From sequence record NC_047770.1: 64,000 nucleotides of DNA; one strand, given 5' to 3'. The stretch is from Escherichia phage ESCO13. The notes beneath the pieces are model-generated. The model worked only from the letters and a program-made list of their open reading frames with translations, searched no databases and had not been told where the DNA came from. The stretch's first letter is position 1. Each line of letters opens with the position of its first letter. Below, piece by piece: positions 31,675 to 57,342 of this stretch. The position numbers and the translations under genes are program-made.

Positions 31675-32148
31675 TTAAAGTTTATAAATAGTCACATCGT
31701 GACCTGTTTTTACTAAAGTTTCTTCAATCATCACTTGGATGATAGCCCAATTACCTCCGGCATGTCCCGCTCCAATCATAGGTAAACCGATCTTACATTT
31801 TTGGTCACGGAGAAGCAAATCATTAGCCATAGCTATTAGTGCATCGTAAAGTGCATCATAGTCCAACTGACGACCTTTAGCATTGTATCCGTAACGGTAT
31901 TGCCCGTATAGATTATATACCAAAGGGTCTGATTGTTCGTCTGGCACCCCTAAACTAAAAGAACCTAACTTACTTTGATCACCAGCCATTGTGTCTAAAT
32001 CTGCCGCATATGCATAAGGGAATGCTCGTTTAATTTGCGGAGCAATTCCTGCTCCCATATTACACATACAATTGCAACAATGAGCAATAACAGTTACTTC
32101 ACCTGCTTTAGCGGCATCAATAAGATTACCTGTTTTCATTTTAAGCAT
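31675..32148 (-). CDS. macro-domain protein (ADP-ribose binding/processing)
   Basis: Start moved to the ATG at 32148 (RBS AAGGAG); GNLIDAAKAGEVTVIAHCCNCMCNMGAGIAPQIKRAFP matches the macro-domain N-terminal signature. Confidence 0.7.
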   Translation of the reverse strand: MLKMKTGNLIDAAKAGEVTVIAHCCNCMCNMGAGIAPQIKRAFPYAYAADLDTMAGDQSKLGSFSLGVPDEQSDPLVYNLYGQYRYGYNAKGRQLDYDALYDALIAMANDLLLRDQKCKIGLPMIGAGHAGGNWAIIQVMIEETLVKTGHDVTIYKL

Positions 32149-32161
32149 TTTTAGCTCCTTA

Positions 32162-32989
32162 TTACAGAATGTGTTGTTTTGTGTAACGATCCAAGAATTC
32201 AAAGTTTTCAGCATACTTTGAAATTCGGTTGTAACCTTCTCCCAAACATCCGAAGAAAAGTTGCTCTACATAGTAGTGTGGCAATTGGCTAAGAATGATT
32301 TTGAAGTCTTCGTGATTTTGGCCCATAAGATACTTAATAGGACGAACAAGACACTGTGCATCACGTTCTTCATTAATCATTTTAACAAACGCTTCTGGTG
32401 TATTGATGTAGTTAAAATTCAGTTTAGCTTCAGTATCTGCTTGATTACCTTCATATTTTGCAAAATACAAGAAGTAAACATCATTTTTAACTTGATTTTC
32501 ATCAAGAATCTCAATCAGTTTGTCTTCATGAGTTCCGGTGATATTTACATCATCAATGAACACAAGCTTCTTATCACCCCAGAATTCTTTGTTGCAGTAG
32601 AATGTATCCCCATCAATAAGTTTCTTACGACTAGCTTTATCCAAGAAACCATAATCGTTGATATAGCTAACTTTACGATGAATAATATCCAGTTCTGCTG
32701 AACGACCTTGATCATATTGTGCTTGCAACATATTAAAGTAATTAATAAAATGATCTGTCATCATTGTTGCAGCATTGTGCACATGGTTATAAGGAGAAGG
32801 GATGATAACAAATTGTTCCCCAATATGTTTCATTGCCACTTGAGCAAAAAACTGAAGTGCCAATTCTTTACCCATACGACGCGCAGCTTGGTTACTACCA
32901 AATTTCAATTTTGAATAGTCTTTGATATCAAAAGTAGCAGTTTCCAGGTCATCAAATTTATTTGCAAAAATTTGAGTTTGATTACGCAT
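32162..32989 (-). CDS. phosphoribosyltransferase-like protein
   Basis: 275 aa; PRPP-binding-like motif KKLVFIDDVNITGTHEDKL. Confidence 0.5.
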   Translation of the reverse strand: MRNQTQIFANKFDDLETATFDIKDYSKLKFGSNQAARRMGKELALQFFAQVAMKHIGEQFVIIPSPYNHVHNAATMMTDHFINYFNMLQAQYDQGRSAELDIIHRKVSYINDYGFLDKASRKKLIDGDTFYCNKEFWGDKKLVFIDDVNITGTHEDKLIEILDENQVKNDVYFLYFAKYEGNQADTEAKLNFNYINTPEAFVKMINEERDAQCLVRPIKYLMGQNHEDFKIILSQLPHYYVEQLFFGCLGEGYNRISKYAENFEFLDRYTKQHIL

Positions 32990-45779: not shown

Positions 45780-45808
45780 TTGATCTGAAATTATTTTCAG
45801 GTATCATA
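45780..45808 (+). promoter_or_regulatory. sigma70-like promoter TTGATC-N16-TATCAT (plus strand)
   Basis: Upstream of the 45836 gene in the divergent intergenic region. Confidence 0.4.
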
Positions 45809-45835: not shown

Positions 45836-46126
45836 ATGAACATTACTTTAGCAACTAAGAATATTTCTGAGACAATTAACGGTTTTGGTGTCATTGTAGC
45901 CTTACACGGTAACAACGAGAAATGGTTGGCTTCTTTTGAAGAGGATCGTCAGCACAACATTATTTTAGATGCTCCTATAAAAGTTATGCATATCGTTGGT
46001 GAAAGCAAAGTGCTCACTTCCTCCCGTTCAAAAGAACAAATTACAAATGAATTAGTAAAACTGCTTGACAATGTTCTTAACATGTTTGATAATGCACCCA
46101 TCGATACAAAACGTGTCTTAATGTGA
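45836..46126 (+). CDS. hypothetical protein
   Basis: Second ATG chosen for RBS spacing (GAGAGG plus 6 nt). Confidence 0.5.
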   Translation: MNITLATKNISETINGFGVIVALHGNNEKWLASFEEDRQHNIILDAPIKVMHIVGESKVLTSSRSKEQITNELVKLLDNVLNMFDNAPIDTKRVLM

Positions 46127-46138
46127 GAGGAGAACCAA

Positions 46139-46426
46139 ATGTATTATTCACAAAATGAAGTAGCAAACATTAAACTGGCAGTTGGCGATCTTATTGTGTC
46201 ACCTAACTACCATTGGGATAACACAGACTTGGTTGAAGTAGTAACTCATGTTGGGTTTGAGGGTGTTGTGCTCTACACCCTGGGTGGAGGTGTTGTTGGG
46301 GAAATGGAACGTTATACAACGACCAAGAAACTGGTAAGTTCTTATCGTATGTTCTTGCATCAAGGCTCAGAAGAGTATGCAACCTTCTTGTTGAAATTGG
46401 ACGCAGATCGGGAGAAGGCACGATGA
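46139..46426 (+). CDS. hypothetical protein
   Basis: 95 aa; RBS GAGAGGAG. Confidence 0.5.
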   Translation: MYYSQNEVANIKLAVGDLIVSPNYHWDNTDLVEVVTHVGFEGVVLYTLGGGVVGEMERYTTTKKLVSSYRMFLHQGSEEYATFLLKLDADREKAR

Positions 46427-46779
46427 AAATTGTACACGATGAAATTCAAATAGAAGAAAGTGACCTGATGGATTTGGATGCAGCTTTGGGGAAGGTAATC
46501 TATGCAGGAATTAAAGCCTTCCGTGAGAAGGCAAACAATAGCACGTTTGTCATGATCCCCACTAAACTGATGCGTGTTTTGTATCCAAATAGAAGTGCGC
46601 CGTATACAGATGAAGAAGAGGAGACAGGTAGAAGAGAGTGGTTAAATATTTTAGAAAAGATGGAGAATGCTTTTATTGATAGTGGTAATCCAGAAATCGT
46701 GTATGCTGAAGATCAAAGGAAGGCACGGTTAGAGGGCCGTCTTTTATTCGCTAGTTATTTTGATAATCTTTGGAGCTAA
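46423..46779 (+). CDS. hypothetical protein
   Basis: 118 aa; ATGA overlap. Confidence 0.5.
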   Translation: MKIVHDEIQIEESDLMDLDAALGKVIYAGIKAFREKANNSTFVMIPTKLMRVLYPNRSAPYTDEEEETGRREWLNILEKMENAFIDSGNPEIVYAEDQRKARLEGRLLFASYFDNLWS

Positions 46780-46781
46780 AT

Positions 46782-46958
46782 ATGTCTGAATTCTTCACAA
46801 TGGCTTTCTTAGGGATCTATCTGATTATTAGTGCTGTTGGCTTAATCATGTCTCTAATAGAGGAAATGGGAATTAAGTGGAATTGTGCATTCGGTATAGC
46901 TCTTATGCTCACTCCGGTTTGGATCTACATCTGCAAAGCAGTTGAACTCATTGGTTAA
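46782..46958 (+). CDS. small membrane protein
   Basis: Start at MSEFFTMAFLG; two hydrophobic helices. Confidence 0.45.
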   Translation: MSEFFTMAFLGIYLIISAVGLIMSLIEEMGIKWNCAFGIALMLTPVWIYICKAVELIG

Positions 46959-46968
46959 TGGAGGTAAT

Positions 46969-47307
46969 ATGTTTAGTAAAGAAATGAGAGAGGTGATCGC
47001 TACTCTGGTAGTAGATCATAGTGTTGAAGTTGAGCGTCACGTTTGGAAAGATGAGCCTCCTTTCTTTGATTTGGCATCACGGGCTAAAAGTCACATGTAT
47101 CTCCTTGAAGATGATAAGGATTTTATTCTGCGTATGCGTTATGATCGAGAGTTTAGAATTCCTCTTGACACAGATCCTGATGATGTAGTATTGTGGTTGG
47201 CAGAGCATTTCGCATTTAACGCTCTACATGGAAGAAGTTTTGGTAATGAACGTTGGGATACCATTTGTCGTAAACATAATATTGAACCAGAATACGGGAG
47301 TATGTAA
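46969..47307 (+). CDS. hypothetical protein
   Basis: Start at MFSKEMREV after RBS GGAGG. Confidence 0.5.
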   Translation: MFSKEMREVIATLVVDHSVEVERHVWKDEPPFFDLASRAKSHMYLLEDDKDFILRMRYDREFRIPLDTDPDDVVLWLAEHFAFNALHGRSFGNERWDTICRKHNIEPEYGSM

Positions 47308-47558
47308 TGTTAAGTATCAAACCTAAAATGATTACTGAAGATCAAAAAGATTACATTTATAAATGTGGTCGGGTGTGGAAAGAATACACTAAAGGTAATG
47401 AAGTTATTGTAGTTACGGAACATGCTATTTCTTTATCAGATCTTTTTGGTGATTATTTGCAAGTCATTAAAATTGGTATTGACAGAGGTTTGGTGCAGGT
47501 GTTAACATTATCCCAAGTTGAAGCAGAACACTTAGACAAAATCATTGTCGAGTTCTAA
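47307..47558 (+). CDS. hypothetical protein
   Basis: 83 aa; TAATG overlap. Confidence 0.5.
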   Translation: MLSIKPKMITEDQKDYIYKCGRVWKEYTKGNEVIVVTEHAISLSDLFGDYLQVIKIGIDRGLVQVLTLSQVEAEHLDKIIVEF

Positions 47559-47571
47559 GAGGAGAAAGAAT

Positions 47572-47736
47572 ATGATCTCTTTAGAATCAATAGCTTTTAA
47601 GAAGGGGTATACCGCAGGGTTCAAGTTTGGTATGTTTAATAAAGTAAATCCATATTGTCCAATGACACACAAAAAGGAATTCGAAGAATGGGAAGATGGA
47701 TTTTCTAAAGGCTATCAGGCAAAAGGTTGGTTGTAA
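47572..47736 (+). CDS. hypothetical protein
   Basis: Start at MISLESIAF after RBS AAGAGGAG. Confidence 0.45.
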   Translation: MISLESIAFKKGYTAGFKFGMFNKVNPYCPMTHKKEFEEWEDGFSKGYQAKGWL

Positions 47737-47745
47737 GGAGAGAAT

Positions 47746-47910
47746 ATGATTTTAAACTTCATCATCAACTTGTGTTTGACATTGGGGTTACTCTGTGCAA
47801 TAGTATCCCCTTTGGTTGGTGAATATTGTTCTGAACTGGCGATGTTTATAGTTCTTGGTGCGGCTATTGCTAATATGTTTGTCGCTGCGATTTGTATGTT
47901 GTGGGAATAG
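47746..47910 (+). CDS. small membrane protein (below the ORF-track cutoff)
   Basis: 54-aa ORF MILNFIINLCLTLGLLCAIVSPLVGEYCSELAMFIVLGAAIANMFVAAICMLWE; RBS AAGGAGAG. Confidence 0.4.
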   Translation: MILNFIINLCLTLGLLCAIVSPLVGEYCSELAMFIVLGAAIANMFVAAICMLWE

Positions 47911-47921
47911 GAGGGAAGTTT

Positions 47922-48278
47922 ATGAAAAAACTAATCTTAGCCACATTGCTGGCTACCGTAAGCTTCACCACTTACGCTCAAAAATTTGTAGCAGTTAAAA
48001 CAGATATTGGTAAAGATGTTGTGATCACAGGCAACAAGTTTTACTATACACCTGGGAATGGTGTTCTAGAAGAGTGTAAAGATGTTGAGGCATATACGGG
48101 AAAAGAAGATAACACGGAACGTCCTTTTTATTCGATTATAGCTACTTGCAAAAATGAAATAGTAGCTATTAAACAATACAAAGATGCCCCTGGAGGAGAA
48201 TACTTATTAGTCAAGAATATTAAGAGTGAAAAAACTGCAAAGTTTACAGTAATTATTTTAAAAGGAGAAACGTTCTAA
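47922..48278 (+). CDS. secreted protein
   Basis: Start at MKKLILATLLATVSFTTYA (signal peptide) after RBS GGAGGGAAG. Confidence 0.55.
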   Translation: MKKLILATLLATVSFTTYAQKFVAVKTDIGKDVVITGNKFYYTPGNGVLEECKDVEAYTGKEDNTERPFYSIIATCKNEIVAIKQYKDAPGGEYLLVKNIKSEKTAKFTVIILKGETF

Positions 48279-49417
48279 TGAAATACACTATTTTTGGAGA
48301 TGTAGCTGTTGTAAATAAGGAATATGGCGTTGAAGCTAATAAACTTCCTGCTGGAGTTTGGGTTGTCAACTGCGATCCGCACGGTAACTACTCTTTAGTG
48401 CGTGGTGAAAGTTTCTCTCTTCCGAACACTCTTTATGGGGAAACTAAAGATCGCGCCGCACATGTTATTAAAACATTTGCTCGTCGTAGTAAAGAAGGTA
48501 AAAATACTGGGGTGTTACTGACAGGGACAAAAGGCAGTGGTAAGACGATGTTAGCTAAACTAATTAGCATGTCTCTAATGTCCACAGAAGGTTTAGGTAT
48601 TCCAACCATTTTGGTTACACAGCCTTACACAGATGCTGGATTCTTAGAATTTATGAGTAAAATTACAGATCGTGCTGTTGTTTTATTTGACGAGTTTGAT
48701 AAAGTGTACGCTAAGAAAGAAGATCAGGAAGCACTGTTGACCTTGTTGGATGGAACAGGAAGTGGAAATAAACTTTACATCCTCACTAAAAATAGTGGCT
48801 ATATCTCGGAATATTTTGTAAACCGTCCTAGTCGTATCTACTACAGTTTCAATTACGATAAACTGTCTAGTGAAACTATGTTAGATTACTTGGATAAGAA
48901 CTTGGTAAATAAAAAGCACGTAGATAACTTCCAACGTTTATGGGATGTTAGCACAGAGTTGTCTTTCGATGTTATTCAAGGCATTGTAGAAGAATTGAAT
49001 TTCTATCCAAAAATGACTTTTAAAGAATGTCTTGAAATGATGGGTATTTCTTTAGGGAACGATGCTAAATGGAATGTGGCTTCTATCGTAGCTAATGGCA
49101 AAACCTTGAAGGTGAATTGGATCAATAACTGGCACGACTTCACCCCTACTAAGTTTTTGTCGGGTGCTTGTTCCCTGAACATCTATCTACAAAGTTTGAA
49201 AGATGATGAAGTGGAAGCAATGGAAACCAACAGTTATGTTATCCTGGATGAAGATGGTGATCCACATATTGATCTATGTGCAACGGCTGATGGTCTAACT
49301 TGTGATCTGATTGAAGGTGGTAAGATTCTGGTTATGAGCACTACACCAGGAAACACTTTGCGAGTGGTGCTGGAGCCTGTAACACAACGTTCCACTACAC
49401 TTGGTAGCGTGTTCTAA
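48278..49417 (+). CDS. AAA+ ATPase
   Basis: 379 aa; Walker A GTKGSGKT, Walker B VVLFDEFD. Confidence 0.7.
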   Translation: MKYTIFGDVAVVNKEYGVEANKLPAGVWVVNCDPHGNYSLVRGESFSLPNTLYGETKDRAAHVIKTFARRSKEGKNTGVLLTGTKGSGKTMLAKLISMSLMSTEGLGIPTILVTQPYTDAGFLEFMSKITDRAVVLFDEFDKVYAKKEDQEALLTLLDGTGSGNKLYILTKNSGYISEYFVNRPSRIYYSFNYDKLSSETMLDYLDKNLVNKKHVDNFQRLWDVSTELSFDVIQGIVEELNFYPKMTFKECLEMMGISLGNDAKWNVASIVANGKTLKVNWINNWHDFTPTKFLSGACSLNIYLQSLKDDEVEAMETNSYVILDEDGDPHIDLCATADGLTCDLIEGGKILVMSTTPGNTLRVVLEPVTQRSTTLGSVF

Positions 49418-49422
49418 TAAAG

Positions 49423-49446
49423 ATGCCCCGCAAGGGGCATTTGTTA
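49423..49446 (+). terminator. rho-independent terminator
   Basis: ATGCCCC-GCAA-GGGGCAT followed by TTGTT. Confidence 0.5.
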
Positions 49447-49505
49447 TGGAGGGATTTTAGTTATTCTTTTGTTGTAGGCTCGCACTAATAGCTAAAGGGG
49501 GAGGT

Positions 49506-50966
49506 GTGCCAAAAATAGTCACTTGGGAACAATATAAAACAGATATAAAACAAGCTTATCAAGGTAAGTCTTGGATTGTTGTAGATTATATTGAGCCGTG
49601 GAACGGCAATAAAACTAAACTTAGATGCATCTGTGCTCTGCATGGAGAATGGAAAACAACAAGCATAAATACCGCTAAACTAGGGAGGGGTTGTCCAGAA
49701 TGCGGTAGGGAGATTATAAGTAAAGCAGTATCTATAAACAAATCAAAAACCTGGGAGCAATATAAAGAAGAAGTGCAAACCACTTACAATCAGGCAGGTA
49801 AGTTTTGGACTGTTACAGGATGGCACGGAGAATGGAAAGGATGGAATACTAAACTGGTTTGTTGTTGTGCTTTACATGGGGAGTGGAGGTCTACTTCTAT
49901 ATCTTCTGCGAAAAACGGGAGTGGATGCAGGAAGTGTATGGGAGAAGCAAACAGAGAAAGAACATCGATTGCATGGGAGAAACATAAAGAAGAAGTAGAA
50001 GAAGCTTATAAAGAAAAACCCTGGATTGTTAGAGGCTATGTGGAACCGTGGAACGGTTCCCGCACTAAGTTGATTTGTGAGTGTAAGGTTCATGGTCAAT
50101 GGTGCACTACCACTGTAAACAGTGCTAAACAAGGGACTGGATGCTACAGTTGTCAAAGAGAAATGACGAAACAAAGGAATACAATGGAGGATAAACAACA
50201 TGTTGAAGATTTTATAAAAGCTTGTCCTGATAATGTAGAGCGTAAATATTATCGTAGCGATAGAGTAGATAGATTAGGTCGTCAGGTTTACTGGATTGTA
50301 GAATGTCCTATATGTGCAGAGGATGATTATTGTAAAGAAGGCTTATGCGATAATAAATTTGAGATGAAGATGAGTCATTTGAAAAGGGGTGGCCTTCCTT
50401 GCCGTTGTTCTAAATATTATCATTACACTCCTGAACAATGGGCCTACCGTATGACCAAAGCTTGCCAGGAACGAGGGGATCAATTTATAGGATTCATTGA
50501 TAAGGTAAGCAATAACAGCAAGTTTAAATATCTATGTAGGGAGCATGGAGAGCAAACGATCACACCTACCGATTATCTCAATGGGAAAGGTTGTCCAGGC
50601 TGTAAGAACAGAAATATGCAAGAATTTTACATCAATATTATTCTTGATGAGTACGGAGAAGACACGGGAGCTTACAAGTTGGGGATTGCAAAGGACAGTG
50701 ATATCAGGATCAAAGGGCAGAATGCAAACAACAATTACTCTATGCGCCGTATAGCATTGTTCGATCTGCCGTCCTACCAAGCTTGCAGGGCGTTAGAGAG
50801 TAAGCTAAAGTCTAAGACTGATCAGATTCTACCGTCTATTGGCTGTGTAGAACGCTTGCACATGAAAGATGGTCATAGTGAAACCTTCCTGCGCGAGGAT
50901 TTGGCTATCGTCTTAAGTGCTATCAACCAAGCAGGTGGAATAATGAGAGAGGAGGAAACATGTTAG
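49506..50966 (+). CDS. protein with tandem zinc-ribbon repeats and a C-terminal GIY-YIG/T5orf172-like domain
   Basis: 486 aa; GTG start after RBS GGGGGAGG; at least three ~48-aa repeats of the pattern W(T/I)V.G(Y/W).EPWNG..TKL.C.C..HGEW..T(S/T)(I/V)..AK.G.GC..C; C-terminal YKLGIAKDSDIRIKGQ resembles the T5orf172/GIY-YIG core. Confidence 0.6.
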   Translation: MPKIVTWEQYKTDIKQAYQGKSWIVVDYIEPWNGNKTKLRCICALHGEWKTTSINTAKLGRGCPECGREIISKAVSINKSKTWEQYKEEVQTTYNQAGKFWTVTGWHGEWKGWNTKLVCCCALHGEWRSTSISSAKNGSGCRKCMGEANRERTSIAWEKHKEEVEEAYKEKPWIVRGYVEPWNGSRTKLICECKVHGQWCTTTVNSAKQGTGCYSCQREMTKQRNTMEDKQHVEDFIKACPDNVERKYYRSDRVDRLGRQVYWIVECPICAEDDYCKEGLCDNKFEMKMSHLKRGGLPCRCSKYYHYTPEQWAYRMTKACQERGDQFIGFIDKVSNNSKFKYLCREHGEQTITPTDYLNGKGCPGCKNRNMQEFYINIILDEYGEDTGAYKLGIAKDSDIRIKGQNANNNYSMRRIALFDLPSYQACRALESKLKSKTDQILPSIGCVERLHMKDGHSETFLREDLAIVLSAINQAGGIMREEETC

Positions 50967-51325
50967 TTGACGTTCAAATTATGCGCAACGAAAGAATGGA
51001 CTTCTTTGAAGCAGTAGAGAAACATCTGATCAGATGGGACTATGAATTTGTTCCTGCTGGATGTGGACCAGTAGAGCATTTAGCGGAAGACGACGATGTA
51101 TACATGATCATTCGTCAAGTGTACCAGACAGACCAGTGTGAAGAAACTCCCGAACTGATTTTGTTTGAGTGTAAAGATCTTGCAAAATATTTTGACTATG
51201 GCGGAAAAGAGGGTCATAATCTCTCCAGATACAATAAACGTCTACTTATCTTAGACTACATGCGGAACAACAAACACAAACTCATCGACGCAGACGCAGT
51301 TTATGGCTACTGGTGGATGGACTAA
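50960..51325 (+). CDS. hypothetical protein
   Basis: 121 aa; RBS GAGGAGG. Confidence 0.5.
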   Translation: MLVDVQIMRNERMDFFEAVEKHLIRWDYEFVPAGCGPVEHLAEDDDVYMIIRQVYQTDQCEETPELILFECKDLAKYFDYGGKEGHNLSRYNKRLLILDYMRNNKHKLIDADAVYGYWWMD

Positions 51326-51338
51326 CAAAGGAGAAACT

Positions 51339-51518
51339 ATGGCACGTTTAGCAGATCATGAAATCTTTAAACCTATTCTGAACCACTATGATGAACTTAA
51401 AGCAGTGTTGGATTGTTATAGAGAGGATGAAGAACGTTTGGAAGTCAATCTTAAGATAGTTCTGATGAAAGCTTTTCAAGACGGGCAAGCTAAAGTTTTA
51501 GAAGGCATGAAAAAATGA
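51339..51518 (+). CDS. hypothetical protein
   Basis: Start at MARLADHE after RBS AAAGGAG. Confidence 0.45.
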   Translation: MARLADHEIFKPILNHYDELKAVLDCYREDEERLEVNLKIVLMKAFQDGQAKVLEGMKK

Positions 51519-52057
51519 GAATAACTGATGAATATGTATTCTTCTTTTCACATAAAGATGTGTTTAGTAATTGGTATATTGCACCCTTTACAGAAACTGA
51601 ACCAGGTTACAATGAGACTTTCTGTTGTGTTGAGCAATATATGATGTGGCGTAAGGCTTTGCTGTTCAAGGATCATGCGATTGCAGCAGCTATCCTTGAT
51701 CACTCAACTATACGTGACAACGAGAGGAAACAAGCATACTACAAACGTATGGGTCGAGCGGTATCTGGTTTTAATAATGATATGTGGGAAGAGAACCGTG
51801 AGCGTATTGTTATGCGAGGCTTATGCTTGAAATATGTACAGAATCCAGATTTGTATGCAGACTTACACCTTTACCAATACAAAACGTTTGTTGAAGCAAG
51901 TCCTTACGATAAGGTTTACGGTATTGGAATGGGAATGTATGAACCAGGGGTGCTAAACCCTGCTACCTGGAAAGGGCAGAATCTTTTAGGAAAATATCAT
52001 AATAAACTGATCGAAATACTTTTCCCAGACAAAATACCGCAAAGACGATATTTGTGA
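51515..52057 (+). CDS. NADAR/YbiA-like (DUF1768) domain protein
   Basis: 180 aa; FFFSHKDVFSNWY ... CVEQYMMWRKALLF ... YGIGMG pattern characteristic of the NADAR family. Confidence 0.65.
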   Translation: MRITDEYVFFFSHKDVFSNWYIAPFTETEPGYNETFCCVEQYMMWRKALLFKDHAIAAAILDHSTIRDNERKQAYYKRMGRAVSGFNNDMWEENRERIVMRGLCLKYVQNPDLYADLHLYQYKTFVEASPYDKVYGIGMGMYEPGVLNPATWKGQNLLGKYHNKLIEILFPDKIPQRRYL

Positions 52058-52113
52058 TATTTTAACTTTTTTCATTTTTAGAACAAAGGTGTCACTTTGT
52101 AGCACAGAAATAA

Positions 52114-52148
52114 GGCTCCTACAGCACCGTAGAGAGCCTGTTATTTTG
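52114..52148 (+). terminator. rho-independent terminator ending the plus-strand block
   Basis: GGCTCCTAC-AGCACC-GTAGAGAGCC followed by TGTTATTTTGT. Confidence 0.5.
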
Positions 52149-52296
52149 TCCTATACAAACCCTTGTCTTTTTCAGTTTGCATCACTAGGATTCGATCTGA
52201 GTGGGTTCCTGAAGGTTTACCAATAAGATTAAAGGTTATATCAAATTCCCACTACCTATTATCTCAAAAATCCCTCAAATTATTTAAACTTTTTAA

Positions 52297-52480
52297 GAAT
52301 TTACAAAAGTGAAAGTTGAAAACCAAAATTTAAAGTTTAGGAAAATTATCTTAAAATGTCAGATACAAAACAAAACTCAAAAGTCAAGGAAAATTTTAAA
52401 AATTTTGCGCGCCCACAGTATTTAAAGTTTTTTTGCTTTTACAAAAATGAAAGTACAAAAGCAAAATTTAAAGTTTACAA
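52297..52480. repeat. AT-rich iteron-like repeat zone
   Basis: About seven copies of (G/T)AAAGT(T/C/A) with A-tracts; two ~40-bp imperfect direct repeats (TACAAAAGTGAAAGTTGAAAACCAAAATTTAAAGTTTAG and TACAAAAATGAAAGTACAAAAGCAAAATTTAAAGTTTAC). Confidence 0.45.
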
Positions 52481-52497
52481 AAATTTTTATGCAGGTG

Positions 52498-52606
52498 AGA
52501 ATGAGAAGAGTTCTCATATGGAAATGCAAATGATAATGATTCGCATTTAAGTTTATAAATGAGATTGATTCTTATTTAATAAGGTAAATGATAATCATTC
52601 TCATTT
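52498..52606. promoter_or_regulatory. array of four phased 21-bp Fur-box-like palindromes
   Basis: Boxes start at 52498, 52528, 52557, 52586 (29-30 bp period): gAATGAgAagagTTCTCATat, AAATGATAATGATTCGCATTT, AAATGAGATTGATTCTTATTT, AAATGATAATCATTCTCATTT; the last contains AATGATAATCATT, the core of the Fur consensus GATAATGATAATCATTATC. Confidence 0.45.
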
Positions 52607-52865
52607 AGAGAATGACGCGCAGGGGCGGTGTTTGTCTCGCGCTCCCGTGTCCCCTCGCCATGTAATAAGAATAACAGATCCAGCCAGGAAAGCAAGCGAT
52701 TATTTTATCTTTACATTTCTTTACAAATATAGAGCGCCCAGCCTACCGGCGATCAACCTTCCAACCAGTGCCCCCTGGTATGTTAGCCCCGCCTTTACGC
52801 CGTGGGGTGGCGCTTCCTCTTCTGTATGTAAAACAGTATAAGCCCGATCCCTGGGCTTGTCAAGA

Positions 52866-53132
52866 TTATTTTTTGTTTTCTTGCCAGGATAGGACACCTA
52901 ACCAAAAATACATATCGCCCCGCGCCCCTGGTGGTATCTTGCTTTCCCCGCCGCCACTGCAAGCCCATAGATAACCATTTGCGAACGTATCAAAATGATC
53001 TATCTCTTCCACCTTATGATCGCCCAGGTTGAGAACGGTTTCAACCTTTAAGCCCGTTGCGCTTGCTACCTGGTGCACCGTGCCGCCTTGCCAGCCCAAT
53101 GAGTGCATAAGGTGTAATGTAGTATTTGTCAT
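52866..53132 (-). CDS. hypothetical protein in the GC-richer island
   Basis: 88 aa; preceded on the minus strand by its own promoter, 5-prime hairpin and RBS. Confidence 0.5.
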   Translation of the reverse strand: MTNTTLHLMHSLGWQGGTVHQVASATGLKVETVLNLGDHKVEEIDHFDTFANGYLWACSGGGESKIPPGARGDMYFWLGVLSWQENKK

Positions 53133-53241: not shown

Positions 53242-53299
53242 TTGACGTTCGCCAGGTGGCGGCATAATATTTACCACGTAGGGCGGCAATGGTGCCGCT
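53242..53299 (+). promoter_or_regulatory. promoter-hairpin cassette 1
   Basis: TTGACG-N17-TAATAT-TTACCACG-TAGGGCGGCAATGGTGCCGCT. Confidence 0.6.
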
Positions 53300-53319
53300 C
53301 ATTATTTGGAGTTAAAATC

Positions 53320-53517
53320 ATGGCAACATTGCACATTGTGGCGAAAGCTGGACAAATAAACGTGGTAGTAAACGGTTTTACTGAGTTCAGTCATCCCCAG
53401 GATGATCATGAAACGGTTTTATCTTTCATTGATTCACTGTTAGAAATGGGAGTAATTACAGAAGACCAGCACGGTACAAAATGCAAGCGCGTTAATCAAA
53501 TTGCAGGAATAGAATAA
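53320..53517 (+). CDS. small hypothetical protein
   Basis: 65 aa MATLHIVAKAGQ...; ATG after RBS GGAG, not the upstream TTG of the track ORF. Confidence 0.55.
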   Translation: MATLHIVAKAGQINVVVNGFTEFSHPQDDHETVLSFIDSLLEMGVITEDQHGTKCKRVNQIAGIE

Positions 53518-53523
53518 AAACTA

Positions 53524-53582
53524 TTGACAACAAACAACAACCTGATAAGATGTATCACATAGGGCGGGAAGTGGTTTCCCGC
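53524..53582 (+). promoter_or_regulatory. promoter-hairpin cassette 2
   Basis: TTGACA-N16-TAAGAT-GTATCACA-TAGGGCGGGAAGTGGTTTCCCGC. Confidence 0.6.
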
Positions 53583-53607
53583 TCGTAACAGAAGAGAGAT
53601 TATCATC

Positions 53608-53880
53608 ATGGCATCATATAGCGCAACAATGATCGTAGCTGGCACAACTGGTAAACCTATGAGCGGTGGCGGATCTTTCGCTAATATCAATATTGACGGG
53701 CGTTTATCCCTGGACGCAGCGATCGCTATTGCACGGGAAACATTTAAGAAAGAATGTAATTTCAACAAGCAAGATTATCTCGGTTTCGCTATTGAAAAAA
53801 CCGCGCGCTTTGTTGATTATAAAAGCCCGAAAATGGTTGATACTACACTAAAAGCGCAAGATGTAGCGTTTTTGCTTTAA
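53608..53880 (+). CDS. small hypothetical protein
   Basis: 90 aa; RBS AGAAGAGAG. Confidence 0.55.
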   Translation: MASYSATMIVAGTTGKPMSGGGSFANINIDGRLSLDAAIAIARETFKKECNFNKQDYLGFAIEKTARFVDYKSPKMVDTTLKAQDVAFLL

Positions 53881-53883
53881 GGC

Positions 53884-53939
53884 TTGACATTAACGAATAA
53901 TTTGTTAATATGTTACATAAAGCGGGAATAGTTCCCGCT
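53884..53939 (+). promoter_or_regulatory. promoter-hairpin cassette 3
   Basis: TTGACA-N16-TAATAT-GTTACATA-AAGCGGGAATAGTTCCCGCT. Confidence 0.6.
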
Positions 53940-53956
53940 ATTTGTAAGGTGGTAGA

Positions 53957-54214
53957 ATGTTTTACATCAAATTAAAAGGTCACGTGATCGCGTTCAAAGA
54001 TAACGCTTTTTACAGATTAGCAAAATATGCGTTAATACATCCCCACTATGTTTATATAAGGAGGCGTGATGAAATAAATATCTTTGATCAAACAACATGC
54101 GAGAACATCGAGATCCGCAAGGTTGGCGTACGTGATTATCGTACATCTTTCTACCCTTGCAAGGATTCAGCAAGTCTTTTTAAAGTATGCCAATTGTTGA
54201 AAAAAGGTGGTTAA
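53957..54214 (+). CDS. small hypothetical protein
   Basis: 85 aa; RBS AAGGTGG. Confidence 0.55.
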   Translation: MFYIKLKGHVIAFKDNAFYRLAKYALIHPHYVYIRRRDEINIFDQTTCENIEIRKVGVRDYRTSFYPCKDSASLFKVCQLLKKGG

Positions 54215-54215
54215 T

Positions 54216-54773
54216 ATGGGCCGCGAATATGTGATCCAGTCTTGGGTAAAACATGAAGCAGATGATCCGCGCATCATTCCCGATCATCTTATCGATGAAT
54301 CCACGGGATATAGCGGTGAGCAAATAGGTAACAGATTAGCACGTAGTAACGGCAACGTAAAAGCGCGTTATGTGCGCCCTGGCTGGCTGGCAAATGGTAA
54401 CGCTGATTTATCCAGTGCGGAAGATGCGAGCGACGGCGCGAAAGATAATCCTTTGTACAAAGTTGATCCGGCTTTTCGTGTCCTGGATGAATACCCCAGC
54501 AAGATAGCGGCGCTCGATCAGGCCCTGGAAAGTAAGCGCATCACCTGGACCGCTTACAACATGGCAAAAAACGTACTTGATGGTAAATTGATTCAAGCTG
54601 AAAGAAAATTAGCCAAAATTGCAGCCATAGCCCAGGAGGAAGACGAGGAGACAACGGAAGAGGAAGAGTACGAAGAGATCCCGCCGTTGTTGTGTGTTGA
54701 TGCTTTTCCTGATTATCAGCCGACAGAGGAAGAAAAAAGGATCGCACTAGAAAACTTTGAAAATAGTCTTTGA
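54216..54773 (+). CDS. hypothetical protein with acidic C-terminal region
   Basis: 185 aa from the ATG at 54216 (RBS AAAGGTGG); second cistron of cassette 3; EEDEETTEEEEYEE stretch. Confidence 0.55.
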   Translation: MGREYVIQSWVKHEADDPRIIPDHLIDESTGYSGEQIGNRLARSNGNVKARYVRPGWLANGNADLSSAEDASDGAKDNPLYKVDPAFRVLDEYPSKIAALDQALESKRITWTAYNMAKNVLDGKLIQAERKLAKIAAIAQEEDEETTEEEEYEEIPPLLCVDAFPDYQPTEEEKRIALENFENSL

Positions 54774-54827
54774 CATATCGCCGCCACTGGCATAATATTT
54801 ACCACGTAGGGCGGCAATGGTGCCGCT
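54770..54827 (+). promoter_or_regulatory. promoter-hairpin cassette 4
   Basis: TTGACA (overlapping the upstream stop)-N17-TAATAT-TTACCACG-TAGGGCGGCAATGGTGCCGCT; near-identical to cassette 1. Confidence 0.6.
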
Positions 54828-54855
54828 CATAGTGAAATTATGCAAGAGGCTTACA

Positions 54856-54951
54856 ATGATTAATAAAGAAAATAGCTTGACGGTTGGAACGATTAACGCT
54901 ATCATTCTAGCCGTTCCATTTTGGATTGTAGTAGCGGCTATTATTTTCTAA
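54856..54951 (+). CDS. hydrophobic micro-protein (31 aa)
   Basis: MINKENSLTVGTINAIILAVPFWIVVAAIIF; RBS AGAGG 6 nt upstream. Confidence 0.4.
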   Translation: MINKENSLTVGTINAIILAVPFWIVVAAIIF

Positions 54952-54959
54952 AAATATTC

Positions 54960-55020
54960 TTGACAACGTTTTTTAATCTGATAAGATGTATCACATAGGG
55001 CGGCGGAATACTTCCCCGCC
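54960..55020 (+). promoter_or_regulatory. promoter-hairpin cassette 5
   Basis: TTGACA-N16-TAAGAT-GTATCACA-TAGGGCGGCGGAATACTTCCCCGCC. Confidence 0.6.
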
Positions 55021-55041
55021 AAAACAAAAAAGGGTAACACA

Positions 55042-55404
55042 ATGAGCAAGCAAATCAATACTATCATGTTAAACCTGGTATCCTTCCGCGATGATATGAA
55101 AAATTTACCACGTGAAACGGTTGATATTCATGTTTCAGCTTATCGCGCCCTTATTGACATGTTACCGCTAAAACGTGATCAACATGCCGCTAACATGATG
55201 CTTAATGCTATGCTTAAAAAGATGATTCAAACGGATCTCATCCTGGCGTATGAGTATCAAGGGCGCTTATATGCTACTTACAACAAGGCGGTACCTGGTC
55301 TGGGAAGTACCGAAGAGTTGCACGGCTTAAACCTGGATCAGAACACTTGGGATAGTATGCGCCGCGTTATGGTATGGGCCGAAAGCGGTAAAATTTACGA
55401 ATAA
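55042..55404 (+). CDS. hypothetical protein
   Basis: 120 aa. Confidence 0.55.
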   Translation: MSKQINTIMLNLVSFRDDMKNLPRETVDIHVSAYRALIDMLPLKRDQHAANMMLNAMLKKMIQTDLILAYEYQGRLYATYNKAVPGLGSTEELHGLNLDQNTWDSMRRVMVWAESGKIYE

Positions 55405-55409
55405 AACGG

Positions 55410-55466
55410 TTGACACTGTTTAAAATTCTGGTATAGTTTATCACGTAGGGCGGCAATGGTGCCGCC
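55410..55466 (+). promoter_or_regulatory. promoter-hairpin cassette 6
   Basis: TTGACA-N16-TATAGT-TTATCACG-TAGGGCGGCAATGGTGCCGCC. Confidence 0.6.
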
Positions 55467-55486
55467 AACAATAAAAGGTTAACATC

Positions 55487-55666
55487 ATGACTATCATTGC
55501 AAAAACTGAGATTATAGGTTTAGATTCGATCCTCCTGGCTTATGAGGAAACTTTAAAAATGTATGTAGTGACCTATGGTGATTATGTGCGTGAATACGAA
55601 TACATTGATCTTGCTTTCGAATGTTACATTCGCCAGGTCAATAAAGCCTATAACGATTATCGTTAA
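55487..55666 (+). CDS. small hypothetical protein (59 aa)
   Basis: MTIIAKTEIIGLDSILLAYEETLKMYVVTYGDY...; below the track cutoff. Confidence 0.45.
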   Translation: MTIIAKTEIIGLDSILLAYEETLKMYVVTYGDYVREYEYIDLAFECYIRQVNKAYNDYR

Positions 55667-55685
55667 AAGTTTTAGTCTTATACTA

Positions 55686-55738
55686 TTGACAATGAGTGAT
55701 AGTATAAGCATAATAACTTTTATCGGGAATACTTCCCA
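55686..55738 (+). promoter_or_regulatory. promoter-hairpin cassette 7 (variant)
   Basis: TTGACA-N17-CATAAT ... CGGGAATACTTCCC. Confidence 0.5.
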
Positions 55739-55763
55739 CTAACCAAAAAAAGAGAGTAATATC

Positions 55764-56129
55764 ATGGCTATTAATATCAATGTTTCCTCTTATGCTACCC
55801 TGGCTGACACGGCTAAAATTGAATTATCCAGCATTGAGGCGGTGCATATTAGCGCCCGTCGTTGGTTTCAACAGTCCTACGGTAACACATATTTTTCTTT
55901 AATGGTTGACGTTGAGATCGGCGGTAAACTGATCGAGGTGGTTAACGTTCCGTTTCAATATGGTTATGGTGATCATTTTGATACCGTCGCCCTGGAAGAA
56001 TTTAGCAAGGTTATTAATATGGAAGGTAAAGAGTTTTCACGCGGCGCGTATCTTTCCCGTTTTTGCCGTGACAATGGGATCACTGTATACAGTCATGCAA
56101 GCGATGTTAAACGTAAAAAAGATTTATAA
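55764..56129 (+). CDS. hypothetical protein
   Basis: 121 aa; RBS AGAGAG. Confidence 0.55.
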   Translation: MAININVSSYATLADTAKIELSSIEAVHISARRWFQQSYGNTYFSLMVDVEIGGKLIEVVNVPFQYGYGDHFDTVALEEFSKVINMEGKEFSRGAYLSRFCRDNGITVYSHASDVKRKKDL

Positions 56130-56135
56130 AAAGCA

Positions 56136-56194
56136 TTGACAGCACGAATAAAAAGAGTAAACTGTATTACATAGAGAGCGGGAACACTTCCCGC
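56136..56194 (+). promoter_or_regulatory. promoter-hairpin cassette 8
   Basis: TTGACA-N16-TAAACT-GTATTACA-TAGAGAGCGGGAACACTTCCCGC. Confidence 0.55.
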
Positions 56195-56218
56195 CTCACT
56201 GAAAAAGAGATTAACATC

Positions 56219-56458
56219 ATGGCTAAATCAAAAATGTTCTTAGGTCACAAAAATAAAACTCATTGGAATGTAAGCCTTTGGATTAATAACGACGAATCAT
56301 TATATCGGTTGGCGAAAGAATTTATCGCCGCTAATACTAATCGTAATGATGCTGCCCGTGATATGATGTTATTCCTGGAACAAACTGGACAAGATAAAAC
56401 TCCAGACGGTTTCAAGTATAGTAAAACTGCAATCCGTGCCGCGATGGTTGGAATGTAA
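56219..56458 (+). CDS. small hypothetical protein
   Basis: 79 aa. Confidence 0.55.
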   Translation: MAKSKMFLGHKNKTHWNVSLWINNDESLYRLAKEFIAANTNRNDAARDMMLFLEQTGQDKTPDGFKYSKTAIRAAMVGM

Positions 56459-56467
56459 TAAAAACAG

Positions 56468-56526
56468 TTGACAACGTTTAAAATTAGTGTAAGATGTATC
56501 ACATAGGGCGGGAAATGGTTTCCCGC
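56468..56526 (+). promoter_or_regulatory. promoter-hairpin cassette 9
   Basis: TTGACA-N16-TAAGAT-GTATCACA-TAGGGCGGGAAATGGTTTCCCGC. Confidence 0.6.
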
Positions 56527-56549
56527 TCACAACAGAGAGATTAAAGATT

Positions 56550-56777
56550 ATGGCTATCAATATTGTTCGCGTATCCGGCACCGTTGGCTATTCCCAGGTT
56601 GTAGCAGTTGTAACAAACAAAAAGATTAATGATGTATGTGAGATCTTGAATAAGTGGGCTATTGCTAATTTTGGAGAATATGCAAGCGTCGAGTACATCG
56701 AATCCTACCAGGTGCCGACCATCAGCCTAACCGATCTCAACGTTGATCGCCTGTTATGCCTGGATGAATTAAACTAA
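56550..56777 (+). CDS. small hypothetical protein
   Basis: 75 aa. Confidence 0.55.
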   Translation: MAINIVRVSGTVGYSQVVAVVTNKKINDVCEILNKWAIANFGEYASVEYIESYQVPTISLTDLNVDRLLCLDELN

Positions 56778-56784
56778 AATAATA

Positions 56785-56841
56785 TTGACAAGATAACTAA
56801 AATCAGTAAAATGTAATGCATAGGGCGGCAATAGTGCCGCT
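56785..56841 (+). promoter_or_regulatory. promoter-hairpin cassette 10
   Basis: TTGACA-N16-TAAAAT-GTAATGCA-TAGGGCGGCAATAGTGCCGCT. Confidence 0.6.
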
Positions 56842-56863
56842 CATAGTAAGAGGGATTATCAAA

Positions 56864-57079
56864 ATGGCTAATATCCGCACACTGTTAAAAAATGCAAGTC
56901 AAGTTTTATTTTCAGATGACGAGTATTTCAATAAAGACATTACAGGCGTGAAAAATTTAAAAGACGTTAAGGATGTAATAGGTATTCGAGGATCTTTACG
57001 TAAAGGTGACTACTACGGCAATAAAGTACAATATAAATTAAATCAGTCTTATGATTTTACTTTGACAATTATTTCATAA
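56864..57079 (+). CDS. small hypothetical protein
   Basis: 71 aa from MANIRTLLK (RBS AAGAGGGA). Confidence 0.55.
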   Translation: MANIRTLLKNASQVLFSDDEYFNKDITGVKNLKDVKDVIGIRGSLRKGDYYGNKVQYKLNQSYDFTLTIIS

Positions 57080-57085
57080 AACCGC

Positions 57086-57147: not shown

Positions 57148-57171
57148 TAACAAAGAGAAGAGGAAAACATC

Positions 57172-57339: not shown

Positions 57340-57342
57340 TCG

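What the first reader, a model, noticed from the sequence alone, without database searches (positions are those of the whole stretch)
51515..52057. NADAR/YbiA-like protein at the end of the plus-strand early block
The 180-aa product carries the NADAR (DUF1768) pattern (FFFSHKDVFSNWY, CVEQYMMWRKALLF, YGIGMG). NADAR enzymes are linked to NAD and ADP-ribose metabolism and, as I recall, have been reported to reverse guanine ADP-ribosylation. With the macro-domain gene 20 kb away, the phage carries two unrelated ADP-ribose-processing folds, consistent with a counter-defence role against ADP-ribosylating toxins.
Basis: partly seen in the sequence, partly recalled or inferred. Interest (0 to 1): 0.6.

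Follow-up and report, generated by a model that had tools for sequence, protein, structure and literature searches.

The report
Phage NADAR enzyme, likely anti-DarT1 factor
This phage gene encodes a NADAR enzyme that most likely strips ADP-ribose off guanine in phage DNA to defeat the bacterial DarTG1 defence; a 57%-identical gene at the same position in sister phages has already been shown to do this, so the finding is correct but ordinary.

Summary
Window 51515..52057 (+) is a 180-aa ORF with the quoted motifs. It matches Pfam NADAR (122 bits against a cut-off of 35) and folds with high confidence into the NADAR/YbiA fold (TM 0.78 to PnNADAR, 8BAU). The window is a phAPEC8-like myovirus (Phapecoctavirus). 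The gene is the last of a plus-strand unit, is followed by a terminator-like hairpin, and is under purifying selection (dN/dS 0.05-0.15). All ADP-ribose-contacting and catalytic residues of PnNADAR are kept (E40, K47, K77, R81, W91, E127, D132). The decisive comparison is with bas60_0111 of the sister genus (phi92-like BASEL phages Bas60-62): 57% identical over the 172 residues that align, and syntenic. As AdfN^Bas60, that protein neutralises DarT1 and restores phage growth on DarTG1 hosts, but not on DarTG2 hosts (Johannesman et al. 2025). The window gene is therefore an untested orthologue of a characterised orphan-antitoxin counter-defence enzyme. The macro-domain gene 19 kb away exists and belongs to the DarG/TARG1/SCO6735 class that removes thymidine-linked ADP-ribose. 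It lies in a separate Ter/PRTase gene cluster, and its family is very common in phages. Phage macro anti-DarTG2 factors (AdfM) were also published in 2026.

The parts
51515..52057 (+). NADAR-domain protein gene (180 aa), a putative AdfN-type DNA ADP-ribosyl glycohydrolase
   Evidence: ORF and translation; Pfam NADAR 122 bits; AF2 pLDDT 95.3 and Foldseek TM 0.78 to 8BAU; active-site map; 57% identical and syntenic to bas60_0111; dN/dS 0.05-0.15.
52113..52150 (+). Terminator-like hairpin (52113-52139) plus U-rich tract, 56 nt after the NADAR stop codon
   Evidence: RNA fold of 52095-52160: -23.3 kcal/mol, z = -5.33, 0 of 200 shuffles fold as well. The simple consensus scan did not call it because the stem has a bulge.
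45836..52057 (+). Plus-strand gene block that the NADAR gene closes: about 14 genes, including an AAA ATPase (48278-49417), a CapR-repeat endonuclease-like gene (49506-50966) and two small ORFs of unknown function (50960-51325, 51303-51518)
   Evidence: Annotation of the 99.7%-identical phages ESCO25 and phAPEC8_ev052; Pfam and PHROG scans. Expression timing is not known.
45780..45807 (+). Sigma-70-like promoter candidate (TTGATC-16-TATCAT) at the head of the block, in the divergent intergenic region
   Evidence: Consensus scan, 9 of 12 matches; sequence. This is weak evidence: promoter-like sites in the region are not enriched over shuffles (41 found against 34 +/- 4.8 expected).
31675..32214 (-). 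Macro-domain gene of the DarG/TARG1/SCO6735 class. It is a separate transcription unit and only a hypothetical complement to the NADAR (thymidine-linked ADP-ribose). Relatives annotate the start at 32151.
   Evidence: Pfam Macro 22.8 bits against a cut-off of 22; PDB 5E3B SCO6735 E=1.3e-12, Taq DarG 5M31, TARG1; NCBIfam antitoxin_DarG 35.5 bits, below its cut-off; PADLOC DarG 38.3 bits; Gln at the SCO6735 Q85 position (alignment read with PMC9411070).

Best explanation
The gene encodes a stand-alone ('orphan') NADAR-fold ADP-ribosyl glycohydrolase of a phAPEC8-like coliphage. During infection it most likely removes ADP-ribose from the N2 of guanine in single-stranded phage DNA. That undoes the modification placed by host DarT1-type ADP-ribosyltransferases (the DarTG1 toxin-antitoxin defence), so replication can proceed. 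In other words it is an AdfN-type counter-defence enzyme that mimics the host antitoxin DarG1. Shown here: the ORF, family membership, predicted fold, conservation of the active site, purifying selection, orthology and synteny with AdfN^Bas60, and the absence of an adjacent toxin gene. Shown by others for the 57%-identical orthologue: neutralisation of DarT1 in E. coli without other phage factors, rescue of RB69, T5 and Bas25 on DarTG1 hosts, and no effect on DarTG2. Inferred: that this protein has the same activity and role, and that it is made early enough to matter.
For: Family and fold: Pfam NADAR 122 bits; AF2 pLDDT 95.3 and pTM 0.89; Foldseek 8BAU TM 0.78 and YbiA 2B3W TM 0.68-0.72. Active site: window E40, K47, K77, G80, R81, V83, F86, W91, R95, E127, D132 and Y135 correspond to PnNADAR E43, K50, K75, G78, R79, V81, Y84, W89, R93, E125, D130 and W133 (residue roles from PMC11543638). 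E40, K47, K77, G80, W91, E127 and D132 are invariant in 45 homologues. E40 and K47 are the equivalents of the T4 AdfN residues E36 and K43, whose mutation impairs counter-defence. K77 is the equivalent of E. coli C7 DarG1 K115, which is needed for DarT1 rescue in vivo but not for catalysis. It is present in the window protein and in AdfN^Bas60, but is Ala in YbiA and Gln in T4 gp30.3, the two NADARs that fail to rescue DarT1 on their own. Orthology: 57% identity over the 172 aligned residues (query 1-165) to bas60_0111, bas61_0107 and bas62_0106. These occupy the same place, as last gene of the same + block after the AAA ATPase and CapR genes, with a conserved minus-strand 88-aa ORF downstream. 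Bas60-62 are the sister clade of phAPEC8-like phages (PMC8594841). Experimental data on AdfN^Bas60 come from PMC11825919. The gene is functional: dN/dS 0.05-0.15. It is an orphan: neighbours have no DarT/ART or riboflavin-pathway domains.
Against: There is no experiment on this protein. In vivo specificity differs among NADARs that are all active in vitro: YbiA and T4 gp30.3 alone do not rescue DarT1, and 43% of residues differ from the tested orthologue. The protein is not DarG1-like: it has Glu rather than Asp in the last strand, it lacks the N-terminal extension, and the family profile does not reach 8BAT. Its natural target could therefore be another ADP-ribosylated substrate. TIGR02464 (riboflavin-intermediate N-glycosidase) also scores above its cut-off. 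Expression timing is unknown.
Confidence: 0.72

Rival explanations
1. Same chemistry, different or broader natural substrate. As a Glu-type NADAR, the enzyme mainly reverses ADP-ribosylation placed by ARTs other than DarT1 (pierisin/ScARP-like, YarT-like or unknown toxins). This could include cytidine-linked or RNA-linked ADP-ribose, or it could degrade soluble ADP-ribose-derived immune signals.
For: E127 places it with the Glu-type 'NADAR' and 'YbiA' families. All tested members of those families remove both G- and C-linked ADP-ribose from DNA and RNA, unlike the DarG1 type and T4 type (PMC12945103). The family profile is much closer to PnNADAR (4e-35) than to YbiA (1.8e-15) and does not reach DarG1. 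Iyer et al. 2022 argued that phage NADARs mostly target small ADP-ribose derivatives. The nearest bacterial relatives are stand-alone or prophage-borne with no DarT nearby.
Against: The orthologue AdfN^Bas60 demonstrably counters DarT1/DarTG1 in cells. No C-ADP-ribosylating or small-molecule target relevant to E. coli phage defence is known. This rival is compatible with the best explanation and extends it.
Confidence: 0.15
2. A YbiA-like metabolic N-glycosidase that hydrolyses reactive riboflavin-pathway intermediates, with no role in conflict with the host.
For: TIGR02464 'riboflavin biosynthesis intermediates N-glycosidase' scores 114.9 bits against a cut-off of 73.7. The protein has Glu in the last strand, as in the YbiA family. 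GenBank records call it 'YbiA-like N-glycosidase' or 'GTP cyclohydrolase II'.
Against: No riboflavin genes are fused to it or lie near it. The 'GTP cyclohydrolase II' label is carried over from RibA-COG3236 fusion proteins. E. coli YbiA itself hydrolyses G-ADPr, so the model does not discriminate between the two activities. A lytic phage has no evident need for this housekeeping step. The orthologue has a demonstrated anti-DarT1 function.
Confidence: 0.05
3. It services the phage's own NAD/ADP-ribose chemistry, either by reversing or tuning a phage-encoded ART, or by clearing ADP-ribose by-products of RNA repair.
For: Iyer et al. note that NADARs are co-expressed with ARTs in T4-like phages and are linked to RNA-repair systems.
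Against: No ART, Tpt1/KptA, RNA ligase or NAD-salvage gene was seen among the block neighbours or in the annotated 50 kb of the window. The rest of the genome was not examined.
Confidence: 0.05
4. It is a component of a phage-borne defence or superinfection-exclusion system.
For: PADLOC PDC-M42C matches at 119.5 bits, and there is a weak NCBIfam hit to 'NADAR family anti-phage protein' DS32_2 (15.4 bits against a cut-off of 240).
Against: The PADLOC hit is a domain-level NADAR match. No partner components were found among the neighbours, and the NCBIfam hit is far below its cut-off.
Confidence: 0.03

Closest known systems
AdfN^Bas60 (bas60_0111, QXV83846.1, of Escherichia phage PaulScherrer/Bas60; near-identical in Bas61 and Bas62), Johannesman et al. 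2025, Nat Commun
   Same: Orphan phage NADAR of about 180 aa. It is 57% identical over the 172 aligned residues, has the same genomic position in the sister genus of the same subfamily (Stephanstirmvirinae) and the same active-site residues, including K77, E127 and Y135.
   Different: 43% of residues differ. There is a 6-residue deletion in the loop before the catalytic Glu helix, and the C-terminal tails are unrelated. In this phage two small ORFs lie between the CapR gene and the NADAR. This protein is untested.
Phytophthora nicotianae NADAR (PDB 8BAU), the 'NADAR family' sensu Schuller 2023
   Same: Best solved structural match (TM 0.78). All ADP-ribose contacts are conserved, and it is the Glu type.
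   Different: 26% identity, a eukaryotic protein, physiological role unknown.
AdfN^T4 (T4 gp30.3), the first phage anti-DarTG1 NADAR
   Same: Orphan phage NADAR with the equivalents of E36 and K43. It is specific for G-ADPr.
   Different: A different NADAR clade (the literature describes His in the last strand). It lacks the K77 equivalent and needs another T4 factor in vivo. Similarity is too low for BLAST-level detection, according to the paper.
DarG1 antitoxin (E. coli C7 and G. lovleyi NADAR, PDB 8BAT)
   Same: Same fold and chemistry. The phage enzyme would act as a functional mimic.
   Different: DarG1 has Asp instead of Glu, an N-terminal extension (about 230 aa in total) and an adjacent darT1 gene. 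None of these apply here.
E. coli YbiA (PDB 2B3W; TIGR02464)
   Same: Fold (TM about 0.7), Glu type, and the HMM scores above its cut-off.
   Different: 25% identity. YbiA lacks K77, F/Y86 and V83, sits in a LexA-controlled operon, and does not rescue DarT1 in vivo.
AdfM (PhiKZ gp104 and relatives), a phage macro anti-DarTG2 factor, and SCO6735; relevant to the macro gene at 31675-32214
   Same: DarG/TARG1-class macro domain, stand-alone and phage-encoded.
   Different: The window protein has Gln, not Lys, at the catalytic position (SCO6735 type). It lies in a Ter/PRTase/HAD cluster and is untested.

Membership tests
NADAR superfamily (Pfam PF08719 / DUF1768) | Profile match above the curated threshold over most of the domain | tested here: met
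   122.1 bits against 35.1, profile positions 3-154 of 163.
NADAR superfamily (Pfam PF08719 / DUF1768) | YbiA fold: helical core flanked by small beta-sheets | tested here: met
   AF2 pLDDT 95.3 with helices at 39-50, 54-62, 72-81, 88-108, 111-119 and 157-169 plus short strands. Only 8BAU and 2B3W are significant Foldseek hits.
NADAR superfamily (Pfam PF08719 / DUF1768) | Conserved Glu and Lys seven residues apart (Pn E43/K50; C7 E88/K95) and an acidic residue in the last strand | tested here: met
   E40, K47 and E127, invariant in 45 homologues.
NADAR superfamily (Pfam PF08719 / DUF1768) | Hydrolysis of guanine-N2-linked ADP-ribose | not testable with these tools
   Needs an enzyme assay. All NADARs tested so far are active in vitro.
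AdfN (anti-DarT factor, NADAR type) | Phage-encoded NADAR with no cognate DarT toxin next to it | tested here: met
   The window is a Phapecoctavirus, and neighbours carry no ART/DarT domain.
AdfN (anti-DarT factor, NADAR type) | Orthology to an experimentally validated AdfN | tested here: met
   57% identity over the 172 aligned residues, E=9e-68, syntenic with bas60_0111. Function of AdfN^Bas60 is from PMC11825919.
AdfN (anti-DarT factor, NADAR type) | Neutralises DarT1 and restores plating on DarTG1 hosts; no effect on DarTG2 | not testable with these tools
   Genetic and plaque assays are required.
DarG1 antitoxin (DarT1-associated BC4488-type NADAR) | Adjacent darT1 gene | tested here: not met
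   No such gene in the block.
DarG1 antitoxin (DarT1-associated BC4488-type NADAR) | Aspartate in the last strand, and an N-terminal fold extension | tested here: not met
   Glu127; the core begins at about residue 5 of 180 aa; the family profile does not hit 8BAT at E<=1.
YbiA-type riboflavin-intermediate N-glycosidase (TIGR02464) | HMM above the curated cut-off, and Glu in the last strand | tested here: met
   114.9 bits against 73.7; E127.
YbiA-type riboflavin-intermediate N-glycosidase (TIGR02464) | Fusion to, or neighbourhood with, riboflavin genes (RibA/RibD), or the ybiA-dinG LexA operon context | tested here: not met
   The neighbours are an AAA ATPase, a CapR endonuclease-like gene and small ORFs of unknown function.
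YbiA-type riboflavin-intermediate N-glycosidase (TIGR02464) | N-glycosidase activity on riboflavin intermediates | not testable with these tools
   Enzyme assay required.
DarG2/AdfM-type macrodomain (for the gene at 31675-32214) | ALC1/TARG1/DarG-class macro domain | tested here: met
   Best PDB hits are SCO6735, BT1257, Taq DarG and TARG1. The only NCBIfam and PADLOC hits are to DarG, over the macro part, and below the full-length cut-off.
DarG2/AdfM-type macrodomain (for the gene at 31675-32214) | Catalytic Lys (Taq DarG K80 / PhiKZ AdfM K78) | tested here: not met
   Gln in 'NLYGQY', aligned to SCO6735 Q85. SCO6735 uses Gln and still cleaves T-ADPr.
DarG2/AdfM-type macrodomain (for the gene at 31675-32214) | Removal of thymidine-linked ADP-ribose; rescue from DarT2 | not testable with these tools
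   Assay required.

The most novel reading that the evidence does not exclude
The phage carries a two-enzyme kit for removing ADP-ribose from DNA bases. The first enzyme is a Glu-type NADAR that removes guanine- and also cytidine-linked ADP-ribose from DNA and RNA, which is broader than the T4-type and DarG1-type NADARs. The second is an SCO6735-like, Gln-type macrodomain that removes thymidine-linked ADP-ribose. Together they would make phAPEC8-like phages resistant to both DarTG1 and DarTG2, and possibly to other base-ADP-ribosylating toxins.
Probability: 0.25. Interest if true: 0.45.

Novelty: new member of a known kind. Interest (0 to 1): 0.2.

Why it matters
It allows a confident functional label (AdfN-type anti-DarTG1 NADAR) for a gene that many GenBank records of Phapecoctavirus and Justusliebigvirus phages call 'hypothetical protein' or, wrongly, 'GTP cyclohydrolase II'. 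About 125 records carry it: 69 at 80% protein identity or more and 56 of the phi92 type. These phages are used as therapeutic candidates against APEC, ESBL and O157 E. coli, so knowing that they probably evade DarTG1, and perhaps DarTG2 through the macro gene, helps predict host range. It does not open a new question, because the mechanism and its use by phages were published in 2023-2026.

Tried and rejected
(1) DarG1-type antitoxin or a phage-borne TA pair: rejected, because there is no DarT/ART neighbour, the last-strand residue is Glu rather than Asp, there is no N-terminal extension, and the profile does not reach 8BAT. (2) A riboflavin-pathway role: TIGR02464 scores above its cut-off, but there is no pathway context, and the 'GTP cyclohydrolase II' label is an annotation carry-over. 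(3) The CapR-repeat gene as a functional partner: it is conserved upstream in Bas60/61, but it is a T5orf172/endonuclease-like protein with a variable repeat number (5, 4 and 2 copies), so it looks like a mobile-nuclease neighbour. (4) The closest bacterial relatives as antitoxins of a YarT-like toxin: the Kofleriaceae homologue is stand-alone and the Burkholderia homologue lies in a prophage-like context, neither with an adjacent small toxin. (5) An RNA element or tRNA in the gap downstream: no Rfam match and no tRNA. (6) Literature support for the 'early' label: no transcription data were found for phAPEC8- or phi92-like phages. (8) The supplement of Johannesman et al. (Table S3, accession numbers) is not held, so equating AdfN^Bas60 with bas60_0111 rests on that being the only NADAR found in those genomes (one place per record) and on the paper's statement that Bas60-62 share one NADAR.

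Full report
OBSERVATION. Window 51515..52057 (+) is an ATG-initiated ORF of 180 codons. The other ORFs overlapping these coordinates are 40-51 aa and lie in other frames. The start codon overlaps the stop of the preceding 71-aa ORF (ATGA), and the N-terminus is conserved in orthologues.

The protein matches Pfam NADAR (PF08719) at E=3.4e-35, 122 bits against a gathering score of 35.1, over almost the whole profile. It also matches NCBIfam TIGR02464 at 114.9 bits against a cut-off of 73.7, PHROG 1017 and the solved PnNADAR 8BAU at E=1.2e-12.

WHAT GENOME AND WHAT CONTEXT. The surrounding 2.5 kb is 99.7% identical to Phapecoctavirus (phAPEC8-like, Stephanstirmvirinae) coliphages. In annotated relatives every gene from 45836 to 52057 is on the + strand, and the NADAR gene is the last of them. 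A stable hairpin followed by a U-rich tract lies 56 nt after its stop codon (52113-52150; -23.3 kcal/mol, z = -5.3), so the gene closes a transcription unit.

The block begins after a divergent intergenic region with a modest sigma-70-like site (45780-45807). The immediate neighbours are an AAA ATPase (48278-49417), a 486-aa protein with five CapR domains (PHROG 'endonuclease'; its Bas60/61 homologues also carry T5orf172) and two small ORFs of unknown function. None of them is an ART, a DarT or a riboflavin enzyme.

THE PROTEIN. An AlphaFold2 model built on 45 homologues is confident (pLDDT 95.3, pTM 0.89). The only significant Foldseek hits in the PDB are PnNADAR with bound ADP-ribose (8BAU, TM 0.78) and E. 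coli YbiA (2B3W, TM 0.68-0.72).

I mapped the residues that Schuller et al. 2023 describe as contacting ADP-ribose or needed for catalysis through HMMER and MAFFT alignments. PnNADAR E43, K50, K75, G78, R79, V81, Y84, W89, R93, E125, D130 and W133 correspond to window E40, K47, K77, G80, R81, V83, F86, W91, R95, E127, D132 and Y135. E40, K47, K77, G80, W91, E127 and D132 are invariant across the 45 homologues.

The last-strand residue is Glu. By the published criterion this sets the protein apart from DarT1-linked DarG1 NADARs (Asp) and from T4-type phage NADARs (His). The family profile hits PnNADAR at 4e-35 and YbiA at 1.8e-15, and does not reach the DarG1 structure 8BAT.

The gene is under purifying selection: dN/dS is 0.13-0.15 against the two more diverged Phapecoctavirus orthologues, and 0.04-0.05 within the two close orthologue pairs.

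THE DECISIVE COMPARISON. A tblastn search finds homologues in 717 phage records. Among them is phage EmilieFrey, whose locus tags identify it as Bas61. PaulScherrer is Bas60 and JohannJBalmer is Bas62. Their NADARs (bas60_0111, bas61_0107, bas62_0106) are nearly identical to one another. Each is 57% identical to the window protein over 172 aligned residues (E about 1e-67).

They occupy the same position: last gene of the same + block, after the AAA ATPase and a CapR gene, and followed by the same small minus-strand ORF. Bas60-62 are phi92-like phages, the sister clade of the phAPEC8 group.

Johannesman et al. 2025 (PMC11825919) tested the NADAR of Bas60-62 as AdfN^Bas60. It neutralises DarT1 in E. 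coli without any other phage factor. It restores plating of RB69, T5 and Bas25 on DarTG1 hosts. It does nothing against DarTG2. The window gene is therefore a syntenic orthologue of an experimentally validated anti-DarTG1 factor.

One further detail points the same way. E. coli C7 DarG1 K115 is required for DarT1 rescue in vivo but not for catalysis. Its equivalent, three residues before the invariant Gly-Arg, is Lys in the window protein, in AdfN^Bas60 and in PnNADAR. It is Ala in YbiA and Gln in T4 gp30.3, the two NADARs that are active in vitro yet fail to rescue DarT1 on their own. This is a correlation over few proteins and is not proof.

MECHANISM. Host DarT1 ADP-ribosylates guanine N2 in ssDNA and blocks replication. 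The phage enzyme would bind the ADP-ribose through K47, R81, W91, R95 and Y135 (diphosphate) and F86 (adenine). It would position the distal ribose with E40 and E127 and hydrolyse the N-glycosidic bond, restoring unmodified DNA. The chemistry and residue roles are established for PnNADAR and C7 DarG1. Their transfer to this protein is inference from sequence and a predicted structure.

RIVALS. First, the natural substrate may be broader or different. Glu-type NADARs, in contrast to DarG1 and T4 gp30.3, also remove cytidine-linked ADP-ribose from DNA and RNA, and Iyer et al. 2022 favoured soluble ADP-ribose derivatives as targets. Second, it may be a YbiA-like riboflavin-intermediate glycosidase; this rests on TIGR02464 alone and has no contextual support. 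Third, it may service a phage ART or RNA repair, but no such genes were seen in the part of the genome examined. Fourth, it may be a defence-system component, but the PADLOC PDC-M42C hit is domain-level only, with no partners. The nearest bacterial relatives are stand-alone or prophage-borne, with no toxin next to them.

THE MACRO GENE. Pfam Macro only just passes (22.8 bits against 22). However, phmmer against the PDB gives SCO6735 (1.3e-12), BT1257, the Thermus and M. tuberculosis DarG macrodomains, and TARG1. The only NCBIfam and PADLOC hits are to DarG.

This is the macro class that removes thymidine-linked ADP-ribose from DNA (PMC9411070). The window protein has Gln at the SCO6735 Q85 position and the IGxGxAGG loop. 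A phage macro anti-DarTG2 factor, AdfM, was reported for chimalliviruses in 2026.

Three points weaken a simple pairing with the NADAR. The gene is on the other strand, inside a TelA / SprT-like / TerC / macro / PRTase_3 / HAD cluster. From memory, not checked in the literature here, that cluster resembles the Ter-associated nucleoside-like metabolite pathway described by Anantharaman, Iyer and Aravind (2012). Its family occurs in 2,930 phage records, including T4 Tk.4. And NADAR-macro co-occurrence is common in large phages. The 'two folds' remark is factually right and mechanistically plausible, but it is neither distinctive nor demonstrated.

NOVELTY AND VERDICT. The fold, the chemistry, its use by phages as an orphan antitoxin, and the function of the orthologue in the sister genus are all published. 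What is new is only that the phAPEC8-like version, which many records label 'hypothetical protein' or 'GTP cyclohydrolase II', can be assigned to that class. It is a new member of a known kind, and interest is 0.2. The most novel reading still open is a combined G/C (NADAR) plus T (macro) de-ADP-ribosylation capacity giving resistance to both DarTG types. I put that at about 0.25 probability and moderate interest.

Noticed in passing
window 53242-62700, + strand: There is an array of at least 12 near-identical modules, each preceding a small ORF (about 60-190 aa). A module is TTGAC(A/G), N16-18, a TAnAnT-like -10 box, then 6-8 nt, then the hairpin (A/G)TAGGGCGG(C/G)AAT(G/A)GT(G/T)CCGC, then about 15-25 nt with an RBS and ATG. 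TAGGGCGG occurs 14 times on the + strand here, never on the minus strand and nowhere else in the window. This looks like individually promoted genes with a conserved 5'-leader hairpin at the transcript start. I found no description of it in the rV5 or BASEL papers.
   Followed up: partly
window 52058-52865: An AT-rich, gene-poor gap lies just downstream of the NADAR terminator. It contains a 72-nt direct repeat in two copies (52276-52347 and 52414-52485, 82% identical). There is no Rfam match and no tRNA. Function unknown; an origin or protein-binding sites are possibilities.
   Followed up: partly
window 52866-53132, - strand: An 88-aa minus-strand ORF (PHROG 19316, unknown function) lies isolated between two + strand regions. 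It is conserved at the same place in Bas60 (bas60_0113) and SKA64, but is not annotated in some records such as phAPEC8_ev052.
   Followed up: partly
window 49506-50966, + strand: A 486-aa protein with five tandem CapR homology domains (PHROG 681 'endonuclease'). Its Bas60 and Bas61 homologues have 4 and 2 CapR domains plus a T5orf172 (GIY-YIG-like) domain. The variable repeat number between close phages suggests a homing-endonuclease-like mobile gene.
   Followed up: partly
window 27062-34245, - strand: A gene cluster of TelA, an SprT-like metallopeptidase, TerC, an SCO6735-like macro domain (Gln type), a PRTase ComF-like protein (PRTase_3) and a HAD hydrolase. It resembles a tellurite-resistance-associated 'nucleoside-like metabolite' module carried by a lytic phage. 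The macro gene could equally be an AdfM-like anti-DarTG2 factor.
   Followed up: partly
GenBank records of relatives (e.g. OM386656.1, OR352955.1, OR525700.1, LR597654.1): The NADAR gene is repeatedly annotated 'GTP cyclohydrolase II'. This error is inherited from RibA-COG3236 fusion proteins; the protein has no GTP cyclohydrolase domain.
   Followed up: yes
L013-L015 (Burkholderia pseudomallei group contigs), gene at 4001-4480: The closest named bacterial homologues (about 42% identity) sit between a Gp3-like/DUF7696 pair and a metallophosphatase-like gene, in what looks like a prophage. These 'bacterial' NADARs may therefore also be phage cargo.
   Followed up: no
window 48278-49417, + strand; L002 2821-3948: The Bas60/61 orthologue of this AAA ATPase is annotated 'FtsH-like protease', but only AAA/STAND-type NTPase domains are detected and no peptidase domain.
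   Followed up: no
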